The position numbers were made by a program, and so were the translations under genes. DNA of 32,000 bases from Candidatus Saccharimonadota bacterium (GTDB lineage Bacteria > Patescibacteriota > Saccharimonadia > Saccharimonadales > UBA4665): positions 420,001 through 452,000 of the forward strand of contig CP064993.1 in assembly GCA_016699955.1 (NCBI GenBank), given 5' to 3'. Of the stretch, positions 7,708 to 12,109 are shown in pieces; position 1 is the first letter of the stretch; the number at the start of each line of letters is the position of its first letter. The notes beneath the pieces were generated by a model. That model was not told the origin of the DNA and made no database searches. It was given only the letters and a program-made list of their open reading frames with translations.

Positions 7708-9021
7708 TTACATACTAAGGTTGGGATGAATACCTAAGCTATATGGGTCAGAAACTGGTTTACCGCACTTCATCATAAAGCAGCCGAGGGTCGCTATCAT
7801 AGCGCCATTGTCAGTGCAAAGACGGGGGTCGGTATAGGCAATAGGGCAGGGGAGTCGCTCGGCAAGCTGACGGCGAAGCTCAGCGCTCGCGGCTACTCCT
7901 CCGGCAATGACAACGCTAGCCGGCTTAAACTCTTCGTAGGCCAACAGGGTTTTATCAACGACCGTTTCGATAGCGATACGTTGGAAGCTGGCTGCTACGT
8001 CGGCCTTCTGAGCCTCAGAGAGTCGTTCTGGTAGGTTTTTGGATGGAAACGTGTGATCTGCACCTATAAGCTGCTGTGCAGTGCGTAAAACGGCTGTTTT
8101 GAGCCCGGAAAAACTAAAGTCGTAGCTACTATTTGTACCAGAGTCATGAGTTAAGGAGTAAGAGATAAGAGCTGAATTTGTGTCGCCCTTGGAGACAATG
8201 CTATTGCTGGGCTGCGGCGCAGATGCTTTTCTTGTGTGTCTGATTTTTTGTAGCTGAGTGCTAATGTGACTTATCTTGGCTTTGGGGAAATCAAAGGCTT
8301 GCGGGTTACCTTCGAGCGCTTTTTTGCCTATGCTTGGGCCACCGGGGTAGGGAAGCCCGACAATTTTTGCGACTTTATCAAACGCCTCGCCAATCGCATC
8401 ATCATGCGTTTGCCCGAGTAGGGTGTAATCAAAATGGTCATTAAACAAGGCTAACTGCGTGTGACCGCCGCTGACGATCAGGGCAAGGAGAGGGAAGTGG
8501 GGTTGGGTAAGGGGAAGTTTGTATTCGGACAACTGTTTTTGAAGAGAGACTTGGCTCTCTTCGGGTGCCAATATCGCTTCGTTCACTGTCTGCTCGCACT
8601 CTCCCAGCTCGCTCCGCTCGTCGCTCGCGCTACGCGCTTGTAACTTTTTGACTGTCGTCAAAAAATTGGCATAGACATGCGCTTCAACGTGGTTGATAGC
8701 GTATAGCGGCTTGTTATGAATTATCGCAATGGTTCGGGCAGTGAGCACTCCAATCAGTAGCGATCCGCCGAGGCCGGGGCCATAGGTGACGGCAATGCCG
8801 TCAATGTCATCCCAGGTGCAACCCGCCTCTGTTAATGCTTCATCCAAAACAGAATTGATAACTTCGATGTGGCTTCTAGCGGCAAGTTCTGGCACCACGC
8901 CACCATATTGCGCCTGCAAATCCATGCTGCTCGCTACTACATTTGACAGGAGCGTATCGCCGTCTTGCACGATTGCCACCGCCGTCTCATCACAACTGGT
9001 TTCTAACCCAAGTATTATCAT
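7708..9021 (-). CDS. tsaD: tRNA N6-adenosine threonylcarbamoyltransferase with two large insertions, 437 aa
   Basis: MIILGLETSCDETAVAIV, GPGLGGSLLIGV, LIVSGGHTQL, DFSFSGLKTAV and the C-terminal CTDNGAMIA motif are all present. It is about 90-100 aa longer than usual TsaD. Confidence 0.93.
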   Translation of the reverse strand: MIILGLETSCDETAVAIVQDGDTLLSNVVASSMDLQAQYGGVVPELAARSHIEVINSVLDEALTEAGCTWDDIDGIAVTYGPGLGGSLLIGVLTARTIAIIHNKPLYAINHVEAHVYANFLTTVKKLQARSASDERSELGECEQTVNEAILAPEESQVSLQKQLSEYKLPLTQPHFPLLALIVSGGHTQLALFNDHFDYTLLGQTHDDAIGEAFDKVAKIVGLPYPGGPSIGKKALEGNPQAFDFPKAKISHISTQLQKIRHTRKASAPQPSNSIVSKGDTNSALISYSLTHDSGTNSSYDFSFSGLKTAVLRTAQQLIGADHTFPSKNLPERLSEAQKADVAASFQRIAIETVVDKTLLAYEEFKPASVVIAGGVAASAELRRQLAERLPCPIAYTDPRLCTDNGAMIATLGCFMMKCGKPVSDPYSLGIHPNLSM

Positions 9022-9031
9022 ATGTCACCCC

Positions 9032-9040
9032 AGTATAACA
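9032..9040 (-). promoter_or_regulatory. extended -10 TGTTATACT, 10 nt upstream of the tsaD ATG
   Basis: The minus strand reads TTTGTTATACT-ggggtgacat-ATG. This is the same 9-mer as upstream of argS. Confidence 0.45.
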
Positions 9041-9089
9041 AATATTGTTGTAAAATATTTGACACAATAGCAAACAAGTAGGGATATAG

Positions 9090-9118
9090 TTGACAAACCG
9101 CTTAAGATTTGCTAATAT
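9090..9118 (+). promoter_or_regulatory. near-consensus sigma70-type promoter for the 9201 gene cluster
   Basis: TTGACA (9090-9095), a 17-nt spacer, then TAATAT (9113-9118). A second TTGACA lies at 9059-9064. Confidence 0.65.
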
Positions 9119-9130
9119 AGCCAGGTAACA

Positions 9131-9148
9131 ACATAAAAAACATAAAAA
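9131..9148 (+). repeat. tandem 9-mer ACATAAAAA x2 in the A-rich 5' leader of the 9201 gene
   Basis: Direct reading: acataaaaa-acataaaaa-acaacaataaag. It lies downstream of the promoter and upstream of the AAAGGA Shine-Dalgarno. Confidence 0.8.
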
Positions 9149-9200
9149 ACAACAATAAAGTACTTAGAACTCACATTTCACTAGAAAGGAATTAAATACA

Positions 9201-10565
9201 ATGGCAAACCCAAATCAATCCCCCAACCCCCACCCAGCAGCTAATACACCCGAGGCCGACGCTGTGCGATTACAGCGACAGGCGTTGGCAGCTCATGTTC
9301 CCAGGAGTAGTTTTCACGAGGTAAAACAACAATGGAACGTACTAGACGCTGAGTTGGAAAACCGCCAGAAAACCGAAGCAGATACTGAAGCATATAACAA
9401 CAGCCCTGAGCGAGTTGCGCAAATCGAAGCTTATAACGACGAGGCAGAGTTGCGTATTTTTGGTTCTAGCGGTCGAACGTACACCGATGCCCAGGGTAAC
9501 GTAATTGCGGACGCGCAGAACCCACGACACGGTCTTGTCGATGGCGCAAAAGAACGGGCTGACGCATTACGCGTTGAGCCAGATGATGCCAAGCATCTTC
9601 CACAACCAGCGCGTGATACTCTGACGAGAAAACGCAATTCAGCTGCTCGCAAAGAAGTTAAACAAGCTGAGGAAGAGGTCAAGGAAATATTGGATCTGCA
9701 AACCAGCGAGGGCTTATCCCTGTCGCAAGCCGACCTAATTGTACGTCTCCGAAGAGAGGTTGACCCACAAGAAAAAGACACATTTGTACAGCGCAGGATA
9801 GCTGATCTTGAGCAGCATGGTGTTAGCTCGGCTGCAGCTAAAAGACGGGCGAAACAGGAAGCAGACTCAATGTATGCCCGTAAAGATGCCGCTCGTCTGA
9901 AAGCCATCAAAAAAAATAATGTACATAGCGTAGACGAATACGGACAATTACTCACGGGTGGTGGAGCCAATAATACATCGCGCTCCAACTCCCAATCTCA
10001 ACCTGGCGAGAATCGTCCAGGGGTGGACGCTGTAATAGACGAGGCTTATGCAGAGAACGATGCGATCTATGCCGAACGAATGGCATTGAGCCAGGCCGCA
10101 GGGAACTACACCGCTCTTTCGGCTAATATGCGTAATGGTCACCTTGGTCGCCTTGCACCAGGCCGTAGCCGCCTGCGTCGACTAAGGGCGCGGGGGCCCC
10201 TGTGGGCGTGGGGTTCCGGCCGGAGGGGCGGCGCGGGAACCCGGGGTGGGGGCCGAGCCCCGCGCCCGCCGCGGCTGGCCCGGGGAGAGACGCGGCGGGC
10301 GCGGGCCGCCGGGGCGCAGCCCCGGTACCGGGGGCGCGGGGAGGTGCTGACCGGGGCGGGGGCGGTTACTGACGGACGGCCCAGGCGACGCGGCGGCGAA
10401 GGGTCGCCCCGCGGGCGGGCCGGGGCTCTCGGGGGGCTTACCAATACGGGAGCGGCGGGCCGCGGGCGCCCCGGAGCGTCGGATAGCGCGGCCCTGCCTG
10501 CGCCGGGGGACAAAAGACAACCAACAGACGGAGCGGTATTTTACCTGGGTGGGGCCGCTACATGA
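9201..10565 (+). CDS. hypothetical charged/coiled-coil-like protein; its last third is read through a foreign-looking GC-rich island
   Basis: It has a good promoter, leader and SD (aaaGGAattaaatacaATG). Residues 1-315 are E/K/R/A/Q-rich with ordinary composition. From about 10160 the translation becomes R/G/P low complexity and cannot be trusted. TGA is at 10563-10565. Confidence 0.5.
   Translation: MANPNQSPNPHPAANTPEADAVRLQRQALAAHVPRSSFHEVKQQWNVLDAELENRQKTEADTEAYNNSPERVAQIEAYNDEAELRIFGSSGRTYTDAQGNVIADAQNPRHGLVDGAKERADALRVEPDDAKHLPQPARDTLTRKRNSAARKEVKQAEEEVKEILDLQTSEGLSLSQADLIVRLRREVDPQEKDTFVQRRIADLEQHGVSSAAAKRRAKQEADSMYARKDAARLKAIKKNNVHSVDEYGQLLTGGGANNTSRSNSQSQPGENRPGVDAVIDEAYAENDAIYAERMALSQAAGNYTALSANMRNGHLGRLAPGRSRLRRLRARGPLWAWGSGRRGGAGTRGGGRAPRPPRLARGETRRARAAGAQPRYRGRGEVLTGAGAVTDGRPRRRGGEGSPRGRAGALGGLTNTGAAGRGRPGASDSAALPAPGDKRQPTDGAVFYLGGAAT
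10160..10510. other. compositional island, about 80-90% GC and G-rich on the + strand
   Basis: Hand counts per 60 nt: 10201-10260 83%, 10261-10320 90%, 10321-10380 80%, 10381-10440 83%, 10441-10500 80% GC. Flanking sequence is about 45-55%. Long ORFs are open on both strands here. Boundaries are approximate, +/-25 nt. Confidence 0.9.
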
Positions 10566-10586
10566 GGAGGGGGTAGGCTGCGTGCG

Positions 10587-11675
10587 ATGGATAAGATGAA
10601 TAATGGGGTGAGCAACCGAGGCTCGAACGAGCTCGACCAGCAAGTCGAAGACGCTCGGCGGGAATATAGGGCTGCTTATGCTACCGTGTTCAACCGTAGA
10701 GTCGCGCATCTTACAACTTCGAATGGTGAAATTACTCCAGAGCATCGTCGCGCACAACTTCTTAATATGCACCTTGATGAAGCAATAGGATTAGAAAATC
10801 GCATTTTGGGTCTACAGCAGCTTCAGGCGAACACCGGCCGCTTTAGTAGCCTACAGAATCATATTGCACGTAAGTGGTCGGAATCGGGACGCTTTGGTAA
10901 AATTGTCCGCGTTGCAATTCCAGCCGCCGCGCTTGGTCTTGCGGGTGGCCTTGGAGTTGCTGCGCTAGGTGTTGCTTGGTTAGGCACATTGGCAGGTGGC
11001 GTTGCCGCCGCCTATGGCGGTCGCAAGATAGGCCACGGGATTGCCGGTGCCGCCTCACGGCACTACGCAAACACTTCCGCAGGTGAGACTGCACTTTCAA
11101 ATCGTTCGCAGGAGCTCTATGAACGGTTTGGTGGGGCCACAGTTGATGCTGCACAACGGGGTACATTTTCAGACCAAACTATACTTGTTGAAGGTCATAC
11201 AAGCGAGATTGTTCATAGAAACCAGCGTCGACGCGCAGCGGCTGGTGCAGTGGGTACCTTAGCAGCCAGCGTTGGCTTTGGCCTAGGACGGTGGACTGGT
11301 TCCAATGTCATTCATCATGACGCACCAGTCCAAAGCACTTACGGTGATGTTTACCCAAATGATCAACCAGGACAAGGCACGAATGCCGATAAATGGTGGC
11401 TTGACAATAGTAGTGCTAACAACAGCGGAGCTGGTGGATCAGCCAGTACATTAGATACTAACCAATACCCATGGCAACTCGCACACGGTGCTGCACCTGG
11501 ACACGAAGTGGACTCAATCCGTCAGGCTATGGAAGCCGCAAACCAAGGCGGAGGCCATTACAATCTTCACCAAGTCGGTAACACACTGCAAGTTTATGAT
11601 GGCAATCATGCGTTGAATGCCGCACAGCAGGCTCAGTTTAATGAGTTTATGGCCAAACTTTTTGGCTGGAAATAG
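10587..11675 (+). CDS. hypothetical membrane protein with glycine-zipper helices, 362 aa
   Basis: It contains VAIPAAALGLAGGLGVAALGVAWLGTLAGGVAAAYGG and AAAGAVGTLAASVGFGLG hydrophobic GxxxG-rich segments. It is in the same frame as the 9201 ORF. The start is uncertain because the GAGGAGGGGG SD-like run lies 13 nt upstream of the ATG. Confidence 0.6.
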   Translation: MDKMNNGVSNRGSNELDQQVEDARREYRAAYATVFNRRVAHLTTSNGEITPEHRRAQLLNMHLDEAIGLENRILGLQQLQANTGRFSSLQNHIARKWSESGRFGKIVRVAIPAAALGLAGGLGVAALGVAWLGTLAGGVAAAYGGRKIGHGIAGAASRHYANTSAGETALSNRSQELYERFGGATVDAAQRGTFSDQTILVEGHTSEIVHRNQRRRAAAGAVGTLAASVGFGLGRWTGSNVIHHDAPVQSTYGDVYPNDQPGQGTNADKWWLDNSSANNSGAGGSASTLDTNQYPWQLAHGAAPGHEVDSIRQAMEAANQGGGHYNLHQVGNTLQVYDGNHALNAAQQAQFNEFMAKLFGWK

Positions 11676-11719
11676 TGGTATGCTGTCAGAGTAGGTAACA
11701 AAATAAAAGGAAGAAAAAG

Positions 11720-12025
11720 ATGAAAATTAATAAAACGGATTTTAAACATAAATTGGTAGAAGCACTTGGCGTAGGTGACTTACCTGAGCAAGATCAAGAT
11801 ATTATCCTCGCCAAGGTTGAGCTGCTTGCCAATACTCGTTTGGCAACGGCGCTTCCTGAACTGCTTGACGATAAAACCTATGAACAGGTTGAAGCAATGC
11901 AGGCAAAAGGGCAGGCAGAGGATGACATTCTTGACTGGGTCGAAAAGCAGATCCCTCATTACGAGGAGATGATGCAAGCGATGATGCTCGACATTGCTGA
12001 TGAGATGACCGAAAAACTAAATTAA
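11720..12025 (+). CDS. small acidic helical protein, 101 aa (resembles the DUF5663-type proteins of CPR genomes, from memory and unverified)
   Basis: SD aaaAGGAAGaaaaagATG. The sequence is LGVGDLPEQDQDIILAKVELLANTRLATALPELLDDKTYEQVEAM... A strong terminator follows. Confidence 0.6.
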   Translation: MKINKTDFKHKLVEALGVGDLPEQDQDIILAKVELLANTRLATALPELLDDKTYEQVEAMQAKGQAEDDILDWVEKQIPHYEEMMQAMMLDIADEMTEKLN

Positions 12026-12044
12026 AATCATCTCCATCTATAAT

Positions 12045-12081
12045 CAGTAAAACAAGCCCAACAGTTGGGCTTGTTTTACTG
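12045..12081 (+). terminator. intrinsic terminator after the 9.2-12.0 kb cluster
   Basis: A perfect 16-bp inverted repeat, cagtaaaacaagccca / tgggcttgttttactg (12045-12060 / 12066-12081), with loop acagt. The GC core AAGCCCA/TGGGCTT is followed by a GTTTTACT tail. Confidence 0.7.
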
Positions 12082-12109
12082 ATTAAGGAAGTCTCTTGGC
12101 GACTATATG

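What the first reader, a model, noticed from the sequence alone, without database searches (positions are those of the whole stretch)
10160..10565. ~350 bp island of ~83% GC inside a hypothetical gene of a ~47% GC genome
Hand counts give 80-90% GC for every 60-nt block from 10201 to 10500, and composition returns to normal on both sides within about 25 nt. The + strand is G-rich with many G3-G5 runs and dense CpG. Stop codons are absent or nearly so in most frames across the core (one TAA lies near the left edge at about 10182), so the 124-aa and 196-aa antisense ORFs are compositional artefacts.

In the host frame the island reads as R/G/P-rich low complexity (RARGPLWAWGSGRRGGAGTRGGGRAPRPPRLARGETRRARAAG...). 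Nothing else in the 32 kb looks like this. There are three competing explanations:
- A chimeric join or contaminant in the assembly, for example high-GC actinobacterial host DNA or eukaryotic rDNA/CpG-island-like DNA.
- A genuinely acquired foreign fragment.
- A real structured or G-quadruplex-prone element, or an RGG-like disordered linker.

I cannot discriminate between these from sequence alone.
Basis: seen in the sequence. Interest (0 to 1): 0.8.

Follow-up and report, generated by a model that had tools for sequence, protein, structure and literature searches.

The report
GC-rich foreign insert splitting a gene
A roughly 0.4-kb stretch of extremely GC-rich, non-coding-like DNA of unknown origin sits inside a gene of a tiny Saccharibacteria genome and cuts that gene in two; it is a one-off disruption, not a functional RNA, quadruplex or protein linker.

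Summary
Window 10180-10510 is 83.7% GC, against 48.8 ± 3.9% elsewhere (maximum 58%).

The island is not simply inside one hypothetical gene. It lies at the junction of two annotated ORFs, 9201-10565 (454 aa) and 10587-11675 (362 aa). These share a reading frame and are separated by a single TGA.

Relatives carry both halves as one continuous protein, 705-759 aa where I checked (family range 400-840 aa). A conserved motif (…SAEQRNGHLGR…) is followed 21-29 residues later by the sequence that opens the window's second ORF. In the window that gap is 161 residues. Removing 135 codons (405 nt) gives 26.

The insert therefore spans about 10179-10583. It has a 330-nt core at 84% GC and a 57%-GC tail of about 68 nt that carries the stop.

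- It shows no codon-phase signal and no folding beyond what its composition gives.
- It has no Rfam or Pfam match, no internal repeat excess and no terminal inverted repeats.
- No other copy or donor turned up in anything I could search.

Best reading (about 0.6): a genuine illegitimate insertion of foreign, non-coding DNA that split or pseudogenised a lineage-specific membrane-protein gene. An assembly artefact (about 0.17) cannot be excluded without reads, but the scarless colinear flanks argue against it. Interest is modest.

The parts
9201..10178 (+). Native N-terminal half of the disrupted gene. It is the 5' part of annotated ORF 9201-10565 (NCBI QQS20241.1, IPL85_02210).
   Evidence: ORF list; identity to the NCBI protein. 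Residues 73-253 match residues 86-261 of the single 759-aa homologue P0020 (E=9e-19), whose C-terminal half matches the window's second ORF.
10122..10151 (+). Conserved family motif ANMRNGHLGR (consensus …[ST]A[EN]QRNGHLGR…). It marks the last clearly native residues before the insert.
   Evidence: A regular expression for the motif matched 13 homologues that had been recovered only through the other half of the gene, and P0023 and P0032 show it by eye. Aligned; BLASTP HSP to L014 (E=0.005).
10173..10178 (+). Left copy of the hexamer CTGCGT at the insert junction (possible microhomology or short target duplication).
   Evidence: Read directly. The second copy lies exactly 405 nt downstream. 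Not statistically significant: the flank-versus-flank local alignment is no better than shuffles.
10179..10583 (.). The inserted segment (about 372-405 nt; each boundary uncertain by about 25 nt), absent from all homologues.
   Evidence: There are 131-137 window-only alignment columns. The spacing from motif to D-x-x-V is 161 aa here against 21-29 aa in homologues. 161 - 135 = 26.
10180..10509 (.). GC-rich core of the insert (about 84% GC, G>C), non-coding-like.
   Evidence: Composition. GC by codon phase is 84.5/83.8/82.7%. No excess of direct k-mer repeats. No Rfam hit. No Pfam hit in any frame.
10257..10307 (.). The one long hairpin in the island (arms 10259-10281 and 10283-10305).
   Evidence: For the 56-nt segment 10255-10310 that holds it, the energy is -42.7 kcal/mol against -33.8 ± 3.1 for its own shuffles. 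However, 17% of shuffled islands contain an equally good local hairpin, so it is not evidence of function.
10186..10436 (+). Span holding three canonical G-quadruplex motifs (10186-10213, 10225-10252, 10413-10436).
   Evidence: Regex scan: three in the island, one in the other 31.6 kb, none on the - strand. This is a by-product of composition.
10510..10577 (+). Moderate-GC (about 57%) tail of the insert: GACAAAAGACAACCAACAGACGGAGCGGTATTTTACCTGGGTGGGGCCGCTACATGAGGAGGGGGTAGG.
   Evidence: Sequence. It is assigned to the insert because the native linker length is already accounted for without it.
10563..10565 (+). In-frame TGA supplied by the insert; the only stop between 9201 and 11675.
   Evidence: The translation of 9201-11672 contains exactly one stop. 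Both ORF starts, 9201 and 10587, are 0 mod 3.
10578..10583 (+). Right copy of the hexamer CTGCGT.
   Evidence: see the left copy.
10587..11675 (+). Native C-terminal half of the disrupted gene, annotated as a separate ORF (NCBI QQS20242.1, IPL85_02215).
   Evidence: Exhaustive phmmer search: of 44 proteins listed (one is this ORF itself), nearly all the others are 400-840 aa and match this ORF, often from about residue 6 on, with their C-terminal half. BLASTP to the 741-aa ORF of L014, E=1e-17.
10139..10772 (-). Antisense ORFs 10139-10513 (124 aa) and 10182-10772 (196 aa): compositional artefacts.
   Evidence: Stops are rare at 84% GC: from the base counts I estimate about 0.007 per codon. No Pfam hit.
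11720..12025 (+). DUF5663 gene, the conserved downstream partner of the disrupted gene.
   Evidence: Pfam PF18908. The same gene order occurs in L014, L081, L082, L084 and L085.

Best explanation
A piece of non-native DNA about 0.4 kb long (most likely 405 nt, about 10179-10583) was inserted into the short linker of a conserved, lineage-specific Saccharimonadia gene whose ancestral product was about 690 aa. The gene has a charged N-terminal half, the motif …SAEQRNGHLGR…, a hydrophobic membrane-like stretch and a conserved C-terminal domain.

The insert is non-coding-like DNA: a 330-nt core at 84% GC followed by a tail of about 68 nt at 57% GC. I infer that it entered by illegitimate recombination, possibly microhomology-assisted (CTGCGT at both junctions). 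One route would be capture of ectopic DNA during break repair or replication in a lineage I recall to be naturally competent.

**Shown consequence.** The N-terminal half now runs into about 128 codons of R/G/P-rich read-through and a TGA (annotated ORF 9201-10565). The C-terminal half is left as a separate ORF in the same frame (10587-11675).

**Inferred.** The gene is split or on its way to being a pseudogene. The island has no function of its own. Its G-quadruplex motifs, hairpins, open antisense frames and RGG-like translation are by-products of composition.
For: **One gene, two ORFs**
- P0020 (759 aa) matches ORF1 residues 73-253 with its N-terminal half (E=9e-19) and ORF2 with its C-terminal half (E=1.2e-14).
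- The single 741-aa ORF of L014 matches ORF2 (E=1e-17) and the motif region of ORF1.
- Nearly all of the 43 other proteins recovered with ORF2 are 400-840 aa and carry the match in their C-terminal half.
- The two window ORFs share a frame, with one stop between them.

**The insertion and its size**
- The family motif matched by pattern in 13 homologues and sits at ORF1 residues 308-317.
- Spacing from the motif to the conserved D-x-x-V is 21-29 aa in homologues and 161 aa in the window. There are 131-137 window-only columns in the alignment. Removing 135 codons leaves 26 aa, colinear with the homologues.
- CTGCGT occurs at 10173 and 10578, exactly 405 nt apart.

**Not native to the lineage**
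- Orthologous genes in L014, L081 and L082-L085 peak at 59-66% GC in 200-nt windows.
- None of 80 related loci has an island.
- No homologue has such an R/G-rich stretch, and the two with the richest low-complexity regions carry them in the N-terminal region, with an uninterrupted junction.

**Not coding, not structured, not an in-situ expansion**
- GC is flat across codon phases.
- MFE z-scores are -1.18 and -0.13.
- No Rfam hit at E<=10. No Pfam hit in any frame. No excess of direct repeats.

**Against a simple chimera**
- Both flanks are adjacent parts of the same gene in its usual context, TsaD - gene - DUF5663 - Mur ligase.
Against: - No donor sequence was found. There was nothing in the phage or plasmid collections, nothing in IMG/VR for five 20-24-mers, and nothing in JGI metagenome contigs for one 20-mer.
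- Only one genome carries the insert, and no independent assembly of the species could be found. Read-level support is therefore untested.
- The junction hexamer is not statistically significant.
- The assembly is probably Nanopore R9.4.1 based (the attribution is inferred). Illumina coverage, and so short-read polishing, may be weak at 84% GC. If so, homopolymer indels could survive in the G/C runs, and the exact length, frame and stop may be slightly wrong.
- Both halves are still intact ORFs. That fits a recent event, but it also fits an artefact or a tolerated split.
Confidence: 0.6

Rival explanations
1. Assembly or consensus artefact. The 0.4 kb is not present in the organism's DNA, or only in a rare molecule, and entered the closed MAG through a chimeric or low-coverage long read that short-read polishing could not correct because Illumina coverage collapses at 84% GC.
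For: - The genome is a single-contig MAG (1,211,496 bp).
- It is probably from a Nanopore CANU/Flye/Unicycler pipeline run with corMinCoverage=0 (attribution inferred).
- The sequence is unique to this record.
- No donor, second copy or independent assembly was found.
Against: - The insert returns to exactly the next residues of the same gene, with no loss and a linker of normal length. Ligation or overlap chimeras join unrelated loci. They do not place 0.4 kb scarlessly at one point.
- The surrounding genes are intact and full length, which speaks for a well-polished, adequately covered assembly.
Confidence: 0.17
2. A small non-autonomous mobile or intervening element: a MITE-like element, or a self-removing RNA or protein-level element that restores the full-length product.
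For: - The insertion length is a multiple of three and both halves stay intact in one frame.
- A possible short duplication, CTGCGT, flanks it.
- Inverted k-mers are mildly enriched (p about 0.03-0.05).
Against: - No inverted repeat pairs the two termini of the insert.
- There is no second copy in the window or in 1.26 Mb of related loci.
- No intron or ribozyme family matches, even at E<=10.
- Folding is no better than shuffles.
- An in-frame TGA would block any protein-level removal.
- Being in frame has a one-in-three prior.
Confidence: 0.07
3. Native feature of the protein or locus: an RGG-like disordered linker that expanded in situ, or a functional G-quadruplex or structured regulatory element.
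For: - The host frame stays open for about 128 codons and reads R/G/P/A-rich.
- Three G4 motifs lie on the sense strand.
Against: - The segment is absent from all homologues at that position.
- There is no codon-phase compositional signature.
- There is no excess of direct repeats, as in-situ expansion would leave.
- The frame ends in TGA before the conserved C-terminal half.
- Openness is expected by chance at this composition: my estimate from the base counts is about 0.45 for 110 codons.
- There is no structure signal.
Confidence: 0.05

Closest known systems
Illegitimate integration of ectopic DNA at microhomologies (microindels; SPDIR in Acinetobacter baylyi; bioRxiv 10.1101/2023.11.22.568220 and 10.1101/2024.07.02.601687, abstracts seen)
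   Same: Non-homologous DNA is placed at a single point in a gene without flanking homology arms. A short identical hexamer is present at both junctions. From my own knowledge, the host lineage is naturally competent.
   Different: The insert here is 0.4 kb, whereas the described events are called microindels. The donor is unknown. The microhomology is not statistically supported. The mechanism is inferred, not shown.
Gene split or pseudogenisation by insertion (generic)
   Same: One ancestral ORF is now annotated as two adjacent same-strand ORFs, with an inserted stop between them.
   Different: The usual culprits (IS elements, prophage ends, frameshifts) are absent. The insert encodes nothing recognisable.
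Rickettsia palindromic elements (RPEs) and other MITE-like repeats inserted in frame in coding genes (own knowledge)
   Same: A short non-coding-like element inside an ORF, with a length that is a multiple of three.
   Different: RPEs are multi-copy, about 100-150 bp, palindromic and host-like in composition, and they stay translated. This insert is single copy in all the sequence available, lacks terminal inverted repeats, is 35 points above host GC, and brings a stop.
Eukaryotic CpG-island or rDNA-spacer-like DNA, or intergenic DNA of high-GC Actinobacteria, as candidate donors
   Same: GC above 80%, CpG o/e about 1, G/C strand skew, no codon periodicity and a sharp compositional edge.
   Different: This is a resemblance of composition only.

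Membership tests
Foreign DNA insertion (horizontally acquired fragment) | Absent from orthologous or homologous genes, with colinear flanks | tested here: met
Foreign DNA insertion (horizontally acquired fragment) | Composition foreign to the host genome | tested here: met
   83.7% against 48.8 ± 3.9% GC; flat codon-phase GC.
Foreign DNA insertion (horizontally acquired fragment) | Identifiable donor sequence | tested here: inconclusive
   No hit in phages or plasmids, IMG/VR k-mers, a JGI metagenome k-mer or related loci. nt, WGS and human could not be searched.
Foreign DNA insertion (horizontally acquired fragment) | Physically present in the organism's DNA (reads span both junctions) | not testable with these tools
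   No read data. No independent assembly found.
Microhomology-mediated illegitimate recombination (SPDIR-like) | Microhomology between donor and recipient at the junctions | tested here: inconclusive
   CTGCGT at 10173 and 10578, but the flank alignment is no better than shuffles and the donor is unknown.
MITE or small transposable element | Terminal inverted repeats | tested here: not met
   No inverted-repeat pair links the two ends of the insert.
MITE or small transposable element | Multiple copies in the genome or in relatives | tested here: not met
   Only 14-25-nt chance matches in the rest of the window plus 1.26 Mb of related loci. The rest of the 1.21-Mb genome was not available.
Self-splicing intron, ribozyme or structured ncRNA | Match to a known RNA family | tested here: not met
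   Rfam gathering threshold and E<=10: no hits. No tRNA or tmRNA.
Self-splicing intron, ribozyme or structured ncRNA | Thermodynamic stability beyond composition | tested here: not met
   z = -1.18 (+) and -0.13 (-). The best local hairpin is matched by 17% of shuffles.
Self-splicing intron, ribozyme or structured ncRNA | Covariation among homologues | not testable with these tools
   No homologous copy exists in any searched collection.
G-quadruplex element | Canonical G3+N1-7 x4 motifs | tested here: met
   Three on the + strand against one in the remaining 31.6 kb. This is expected from the composition and is not evidence of function.
Native RGG-type disordered linker | Present at the same position in family members, with a continuous ORF | tested here: not met
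   Absent in the homologues aligned or inspected at the junction. No comparable R/G-rich run in any homologue. A TGA lies at 10563-10565.
Assembly chimera | Junction to unrelated sequence, or flanks not contiguous in relatives | tested here: not met
   The flanks are adjacent parts of one gene, with a normal linker length after removal.

The most novel reading that the evidence does not exclude
The segment is an undescribed kind of GC-rich intervening element that inserts in frame into genes of ultra-small bacteria and is removed or bypassed, so that the full-length protein is still made. This would explain why both halves remain intact in one frame.

A less exotic variant, which I put at roughly 0.1-0.15, is that it is a captured fragment of eukaryotic DNA (CpG-island or rDNA-spacer-like) or of actinobacterial host DNA. 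That would be a physical footprint of DNA uptake by a naturally competent epibiont.
Probability: 0.04. Interest if true: 0.8.

Novelty: new member of a known kind. Interest (0 to 1): 0.3.

Why it matters
If the insert is real, it shows that a reduced, host-dependent Saccharibacteria genome can take up and fix a sizeable piece of compositionally alien, non-coding DNA in a conserved gene. Identifying the donor (host actinobacterium, eukaryote or virus) would say something about what DNA these epibionts meet and incorporate.

In practical terms, the two database entries QQS20241.1 and QQS20242.1 are halves of one gene. The last 135 or so residues of the first are not a real protein domain, and the antisense ORFs are spurious.

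If it is an artefact, it flags an error in a "closed" reference MAG. Either way the island itself has no evident function.

Tried and rejected
- **Rfam and tRNA.** Rfam at the gathering threshold on the whole window and at E<=10 on 9900-10800 gave nothing. ARAGORN gave nothing.
- **BLASTN.** 10160-10565 against phages gave nothing, and against plasmids one 36-nt chance hit.
- **Exact k-mer scans.** Five 20-24-mers from the island and tail had no match in IMG/VR. One 20-mer had no match in JGI metagenome contigs. Island k-mers had no match in full-text papers.
- **Second metagenome scan.** A junction-flanking protein query returned no relatives. The same query in IMG/VR returned none.
- **Exact-protein look-ups.** Four window proteins (the two ORFs, the DUF5663 protein and TsaD), tried in order to find independent assemblies of the same strain, are not on record.
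- **Word-indexed homology searches.** The 454-aa ORF and its native N-terminus returned only the protein itself. Only the exhaustive phmmer search found the family.
- **False lead.** An apparent 90%-GC island in relative L041 turned out to be a masked N-run.
- **Target-site duplication.** The flank-versus-flank local alignment is no better than shuffles. The CTGCGT pair is therefore reported only as suggestive.
- **In-situ repeat expansion.** Direct k-mer repeats match shuffles. TRF finds only a weak two-copy 22-mer.
- **High-GC coding-sequence donor.** Rejected because GC is flat across the three phases, overall and in segments, and no frame has a Pfam hit.
- **Insert-supplied ribosome-binding site for the second ORF.** GGAGG lies at -23 to -20, against -9 to -14 for other genes in the window. 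Not convincing.
- **Alternative genetic code (TGA as sense).** Rejected because neighbouring genes are full length under table 11.
Full report
**1. The observation**

Window 10180-10510 (331 nt) is 83.7% GC (G169, C108, A30, T24; GC skew +0.22; CpG o/e 1.03). For 300-nt windows elsewhere in the 32 kb the mean is 48.8%, sd 3.9% and maximum 58.3%, so the island is about 9 sd out and unique in the window.

The left edge ramps up over about 40 nt from 10140. The core ends sharply at about 10509, but 10510-10585 remains at 55-65% GC.

**2. Source and context**

The ORF holding the island (9201-10565, 454 aa) is identical to NCBI QQS20241.1, hypothetical protein IPL85_02210 of a Candidatus Saccharibacteria MAG. 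The next ORF (10587-11675, 362 aa) is QQS20242.1. Both lie on a single 1,211,496-bp contig.

The accession and locus-tag series, and the sister record CP064992 recovered as L021, suggest the closed Patescibacteria MAGs of Singleton et al. 2021. Those were assembled from Nanopore reads with CANU, Flye or Unicycler and polished with Racon, medaka and Illumina reads (PMC8012365). This attribution is my inference.

The neighbours are ordinary chromosomal genes: ValRS, TsaD, a DUF5663 gene and a Mur ligase.

**3. What the island interrupts**

The 454-aa protein and its native N-terminal 319 residues found no relatives in the word-indexed search. An exhaustive phmmer search with the downstream 362-aa ORF listed 44 proteins, one of them the ORF itself. 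Nearly all the others are 400-840 aa and match this ORF, often from about residue 6 on, with their C-terminal half.

- One of them, P0020 (759 aa), matches the native N-terminus of the 454-aa ORF with its own N-terminal half (residues 73-253 against 86-261, E=9e-19).
- In relative L014 a single 741-aa ORF covers both (BLASTP E=1e-17 to the second ORF, plus a short HSP over the motif region of the first).
- Where I fetched context, the gene is one ORF followed by a DUF5663 gene. P0020 sits in three ENA assemblies (L082-L084). P0005 sits in L085 between ValRS and Mur ligase. The order matches the window.
- The two window ORFs are in the same frame (9201 and 10587 are both 0 mod 3), and the translation of 9201-11672 contains exactly one stop, TGA at 10563-10565.

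The two annotated genes are therefore halves of one ancestral gene.

**4. Size and position of the insert**

A family motif, …Y-A-x-[VL]-[ST]-A-E-Q-R-N-G-H-L-G-R…, was matched by pattern in 13 homologues and seen by eye in two more. All of them had been recovered only through the other half of the gene. The motif sits in the window at residues 308-317 of the first ORF (nt 10122-10151).

In homologues the conserved …S-x-[KR]-[KR]-S-[ED]-x-x-D-A-x-V-x-x-A-R-x-x-Y… follows after 21-29 residues. In the window the equivalent sequence (GVSNRGSNELDQQVEDARREY) is the start of the second ORF, 161 residues later. MAFFT gives 131-137 window-only columns.

The hexamer CTGCGT occurs at 10173-10178 and at 10578-10583, exactly 405 nt (135 codons) apart. 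Deleting one copy and everything between leaves a 26-residue linker, LAPGRSRLRAMDKMNNGVSNRGSNEL, which is colinear with the homologues. If nothing were duplicated, so that the insert were 10194-10565, the linker would be 37 residues, longer than in any relative. I therefore favour about 10179-10583, with about ±25 nt of uncertainty at each end.

The flanking repeat is not statistically significant on its own.

The insert is compositionally two-part: the 330-nt core at 84% GC and a tail of about 68 nt at 57% GC. The tail carries the TGA.

**5. What the insert is not**

- **Coding sequence.** It is not coding sequence from a high-GC organism. GC is 84.5/83.8/82.7% at the three phases and A/T positions show no phase preference in any segment. 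No frame hits Pfam.
- **RNA family.** No Rfam family matches at the gathering threshold or at E<=10, and there is no tRNA or tmRNA.
- **Structure.** It does not fold better than dinucleotide shuffles (z = -1.18 on the + strand, -0.13 on the - strand). Its one long hairpin (10257-10307) is matched by the best local hairpin in 17% of shuffled islands.
- **In-situ expansion.** Direct k-mer repeats equal the shuffle expectation. TRF finds only a weak two-copy 22-mer.
- **Transposon-like element.** No inverted repeat pairs its two termini. There is no second copy in the rest of the window or in 1.26 Mb of 85 related loci.
- **Native linker.** Orthologous genes peak at 59-66% GC. None of the 80 syntenic loci has an island (the apparent one in L041 is an N-run). 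No homologue has a comparable R/G-rich run, and the two with the richest low-complexity regions have them elsewhere, with an uninterrupted junction.
- **G-quadruplex function.** The three G4 motifs on the sense strand and the open antisense frames are what an 84%-GC, G-skewed sequence produces.

**6. Origin**

I could not find a donor.

- BLASTN against 50,697 phage and 72,556 plasmid records gave one 36-nt chance hit.
- Five 20-24-mers are absent from IMG/VR.
- One 20-mer is absent from JGI metagenome contigs.
- Island k-mers are absent from full-text papers.

The composition (above 80% GC, CpG not depleted, G/C skew, no periodicity, a sharp edge to about 57% GC) is compatible with a eukaryotic CpG-island or rDNA-spacer-like fragment, or with unusual intergenic DNA of a high-GC bacterium. 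That is resemblance only.

**7. Real or artefact**

No reads and no independent assembly of this strain were accessible.

Against an artefact: the insert sits at a single point, nothing native is lost, and the sequence returns to the next residues of the same gene. Ligation or overlap chimeras join unrelated loci. The neighbouring genes are full length, which suggests good coverage and polishing.

For caution: Illumina coverage and short-read polishing may be weak at 84% GC, and R9.4.1 homopolymer errors could alter the exact length, frame and stop. The in-frame property therefore carries little weight.

I put the artefact reading at about 0.17.

**8. Mechanism and consequence**

- **Shown.** A lineage-specific gene that is continuous in all relatives is interrupted here by about 0.4 kb of compositionally alien DNA. 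The N-terminal half acquires about 128 read-through codons and a stop. The C-terminal half is a separate ORF.
- **Inferred.** The DNA entered by illegitimate, possibly microhomology-assisted, recombination of ectopic DNA. The closest described process is the integration of ectopic single strands at microhomologies, known as SPDIR or microindels (abstracts), although those events are smaller. From my own knowledge, Saccharibacteria are naturally competent.
- **Open.** Whether the downstream half is still expressed is unclear. The insert's GGAGG lies at -23 to -20 from the ATG, against -9 to -14 for other genes in the window. Re-initiation 21 nt after the TGA is possible but unproven.

Both halves are intact, so the event is recent or the split is tolerated.

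**9. Verdict**

The anomaly is real and was correctly spotted. The functional-element and linker options are not supported. The chimera option remains open only for lack of reads.

It is a single-copy, single-genome disruption of an uncharacterised gene, in other words a new example of a known kind of event, so interest is modest (0.3). The most valuable follow-ups are read mapping and a donor search.

Noticed in passing
window 9022-12095; L001, L004, L008, L013, L014, L021 upstream of TsaD: The interval between TsaD and the Mur ligase is a variable spot in Saccharimonadia. It is about 40 bp in L001 and L013 and 265 bp in L004. In L021 (851-aa ORF) and L008 (562-aa plus 450-aa ORFs) it is 2.7-3.4 kb of mostly different cargo. 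In the window and L014 it holds the disrupted family gene plus DUF5663, and L081 and L085 carry the same gene followed by DUF5663 upstream of the Mur ligase.
   Followed up: partly
window 9201-11675; P0004-P0045: The disrupted gene belongs to an unannotated family: 44 proteins listed from the 50%-identity representative library, 400-840 aa, with no Pfam or NCBIfam hit. Members share the motif YAx[VL][ST]AEQRNGHLGR, a hydrophobic membrane-like stretch and a conserved C-terminus (…N-x-YPW…HALNAAQQxxFN). Wherever I fetched the sequence downstream, a DUF5663 gene follows.
   Followed up: partly
window 7708-9021 (-); L014 10001-11434: TsaD is 437 aa here and 477 aa in L014, against about 350-375 aa in many relatives. 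The difference is due to variable, charged, low-complexity insertions inside the TsaD domain; Pfam matches it in three separate stretches.
   Followed up: no
L041 1310-1506: A masked run of N in the GTDB copy of DHXS01000009.1 mimicked a 90%-GC island in a naive GC scan. This is a caution for automated composition screens of that collection.
   Followed up: yes
L008 8493-9845: The variable spot in relative L008 carries a 450-aa ORF on the opposite strand that is unrelated to the window's genes. I did not characterise it.
   Followed up: no
window 10566-10589: The insert places GGAGGGGG 12-20 nt upstream of the ATG of the second ORF. This is farther than the spacing of SD-like motifs at other genes in the window, so it is probably not an effective ribosome-binding site.
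   Followed up: yes
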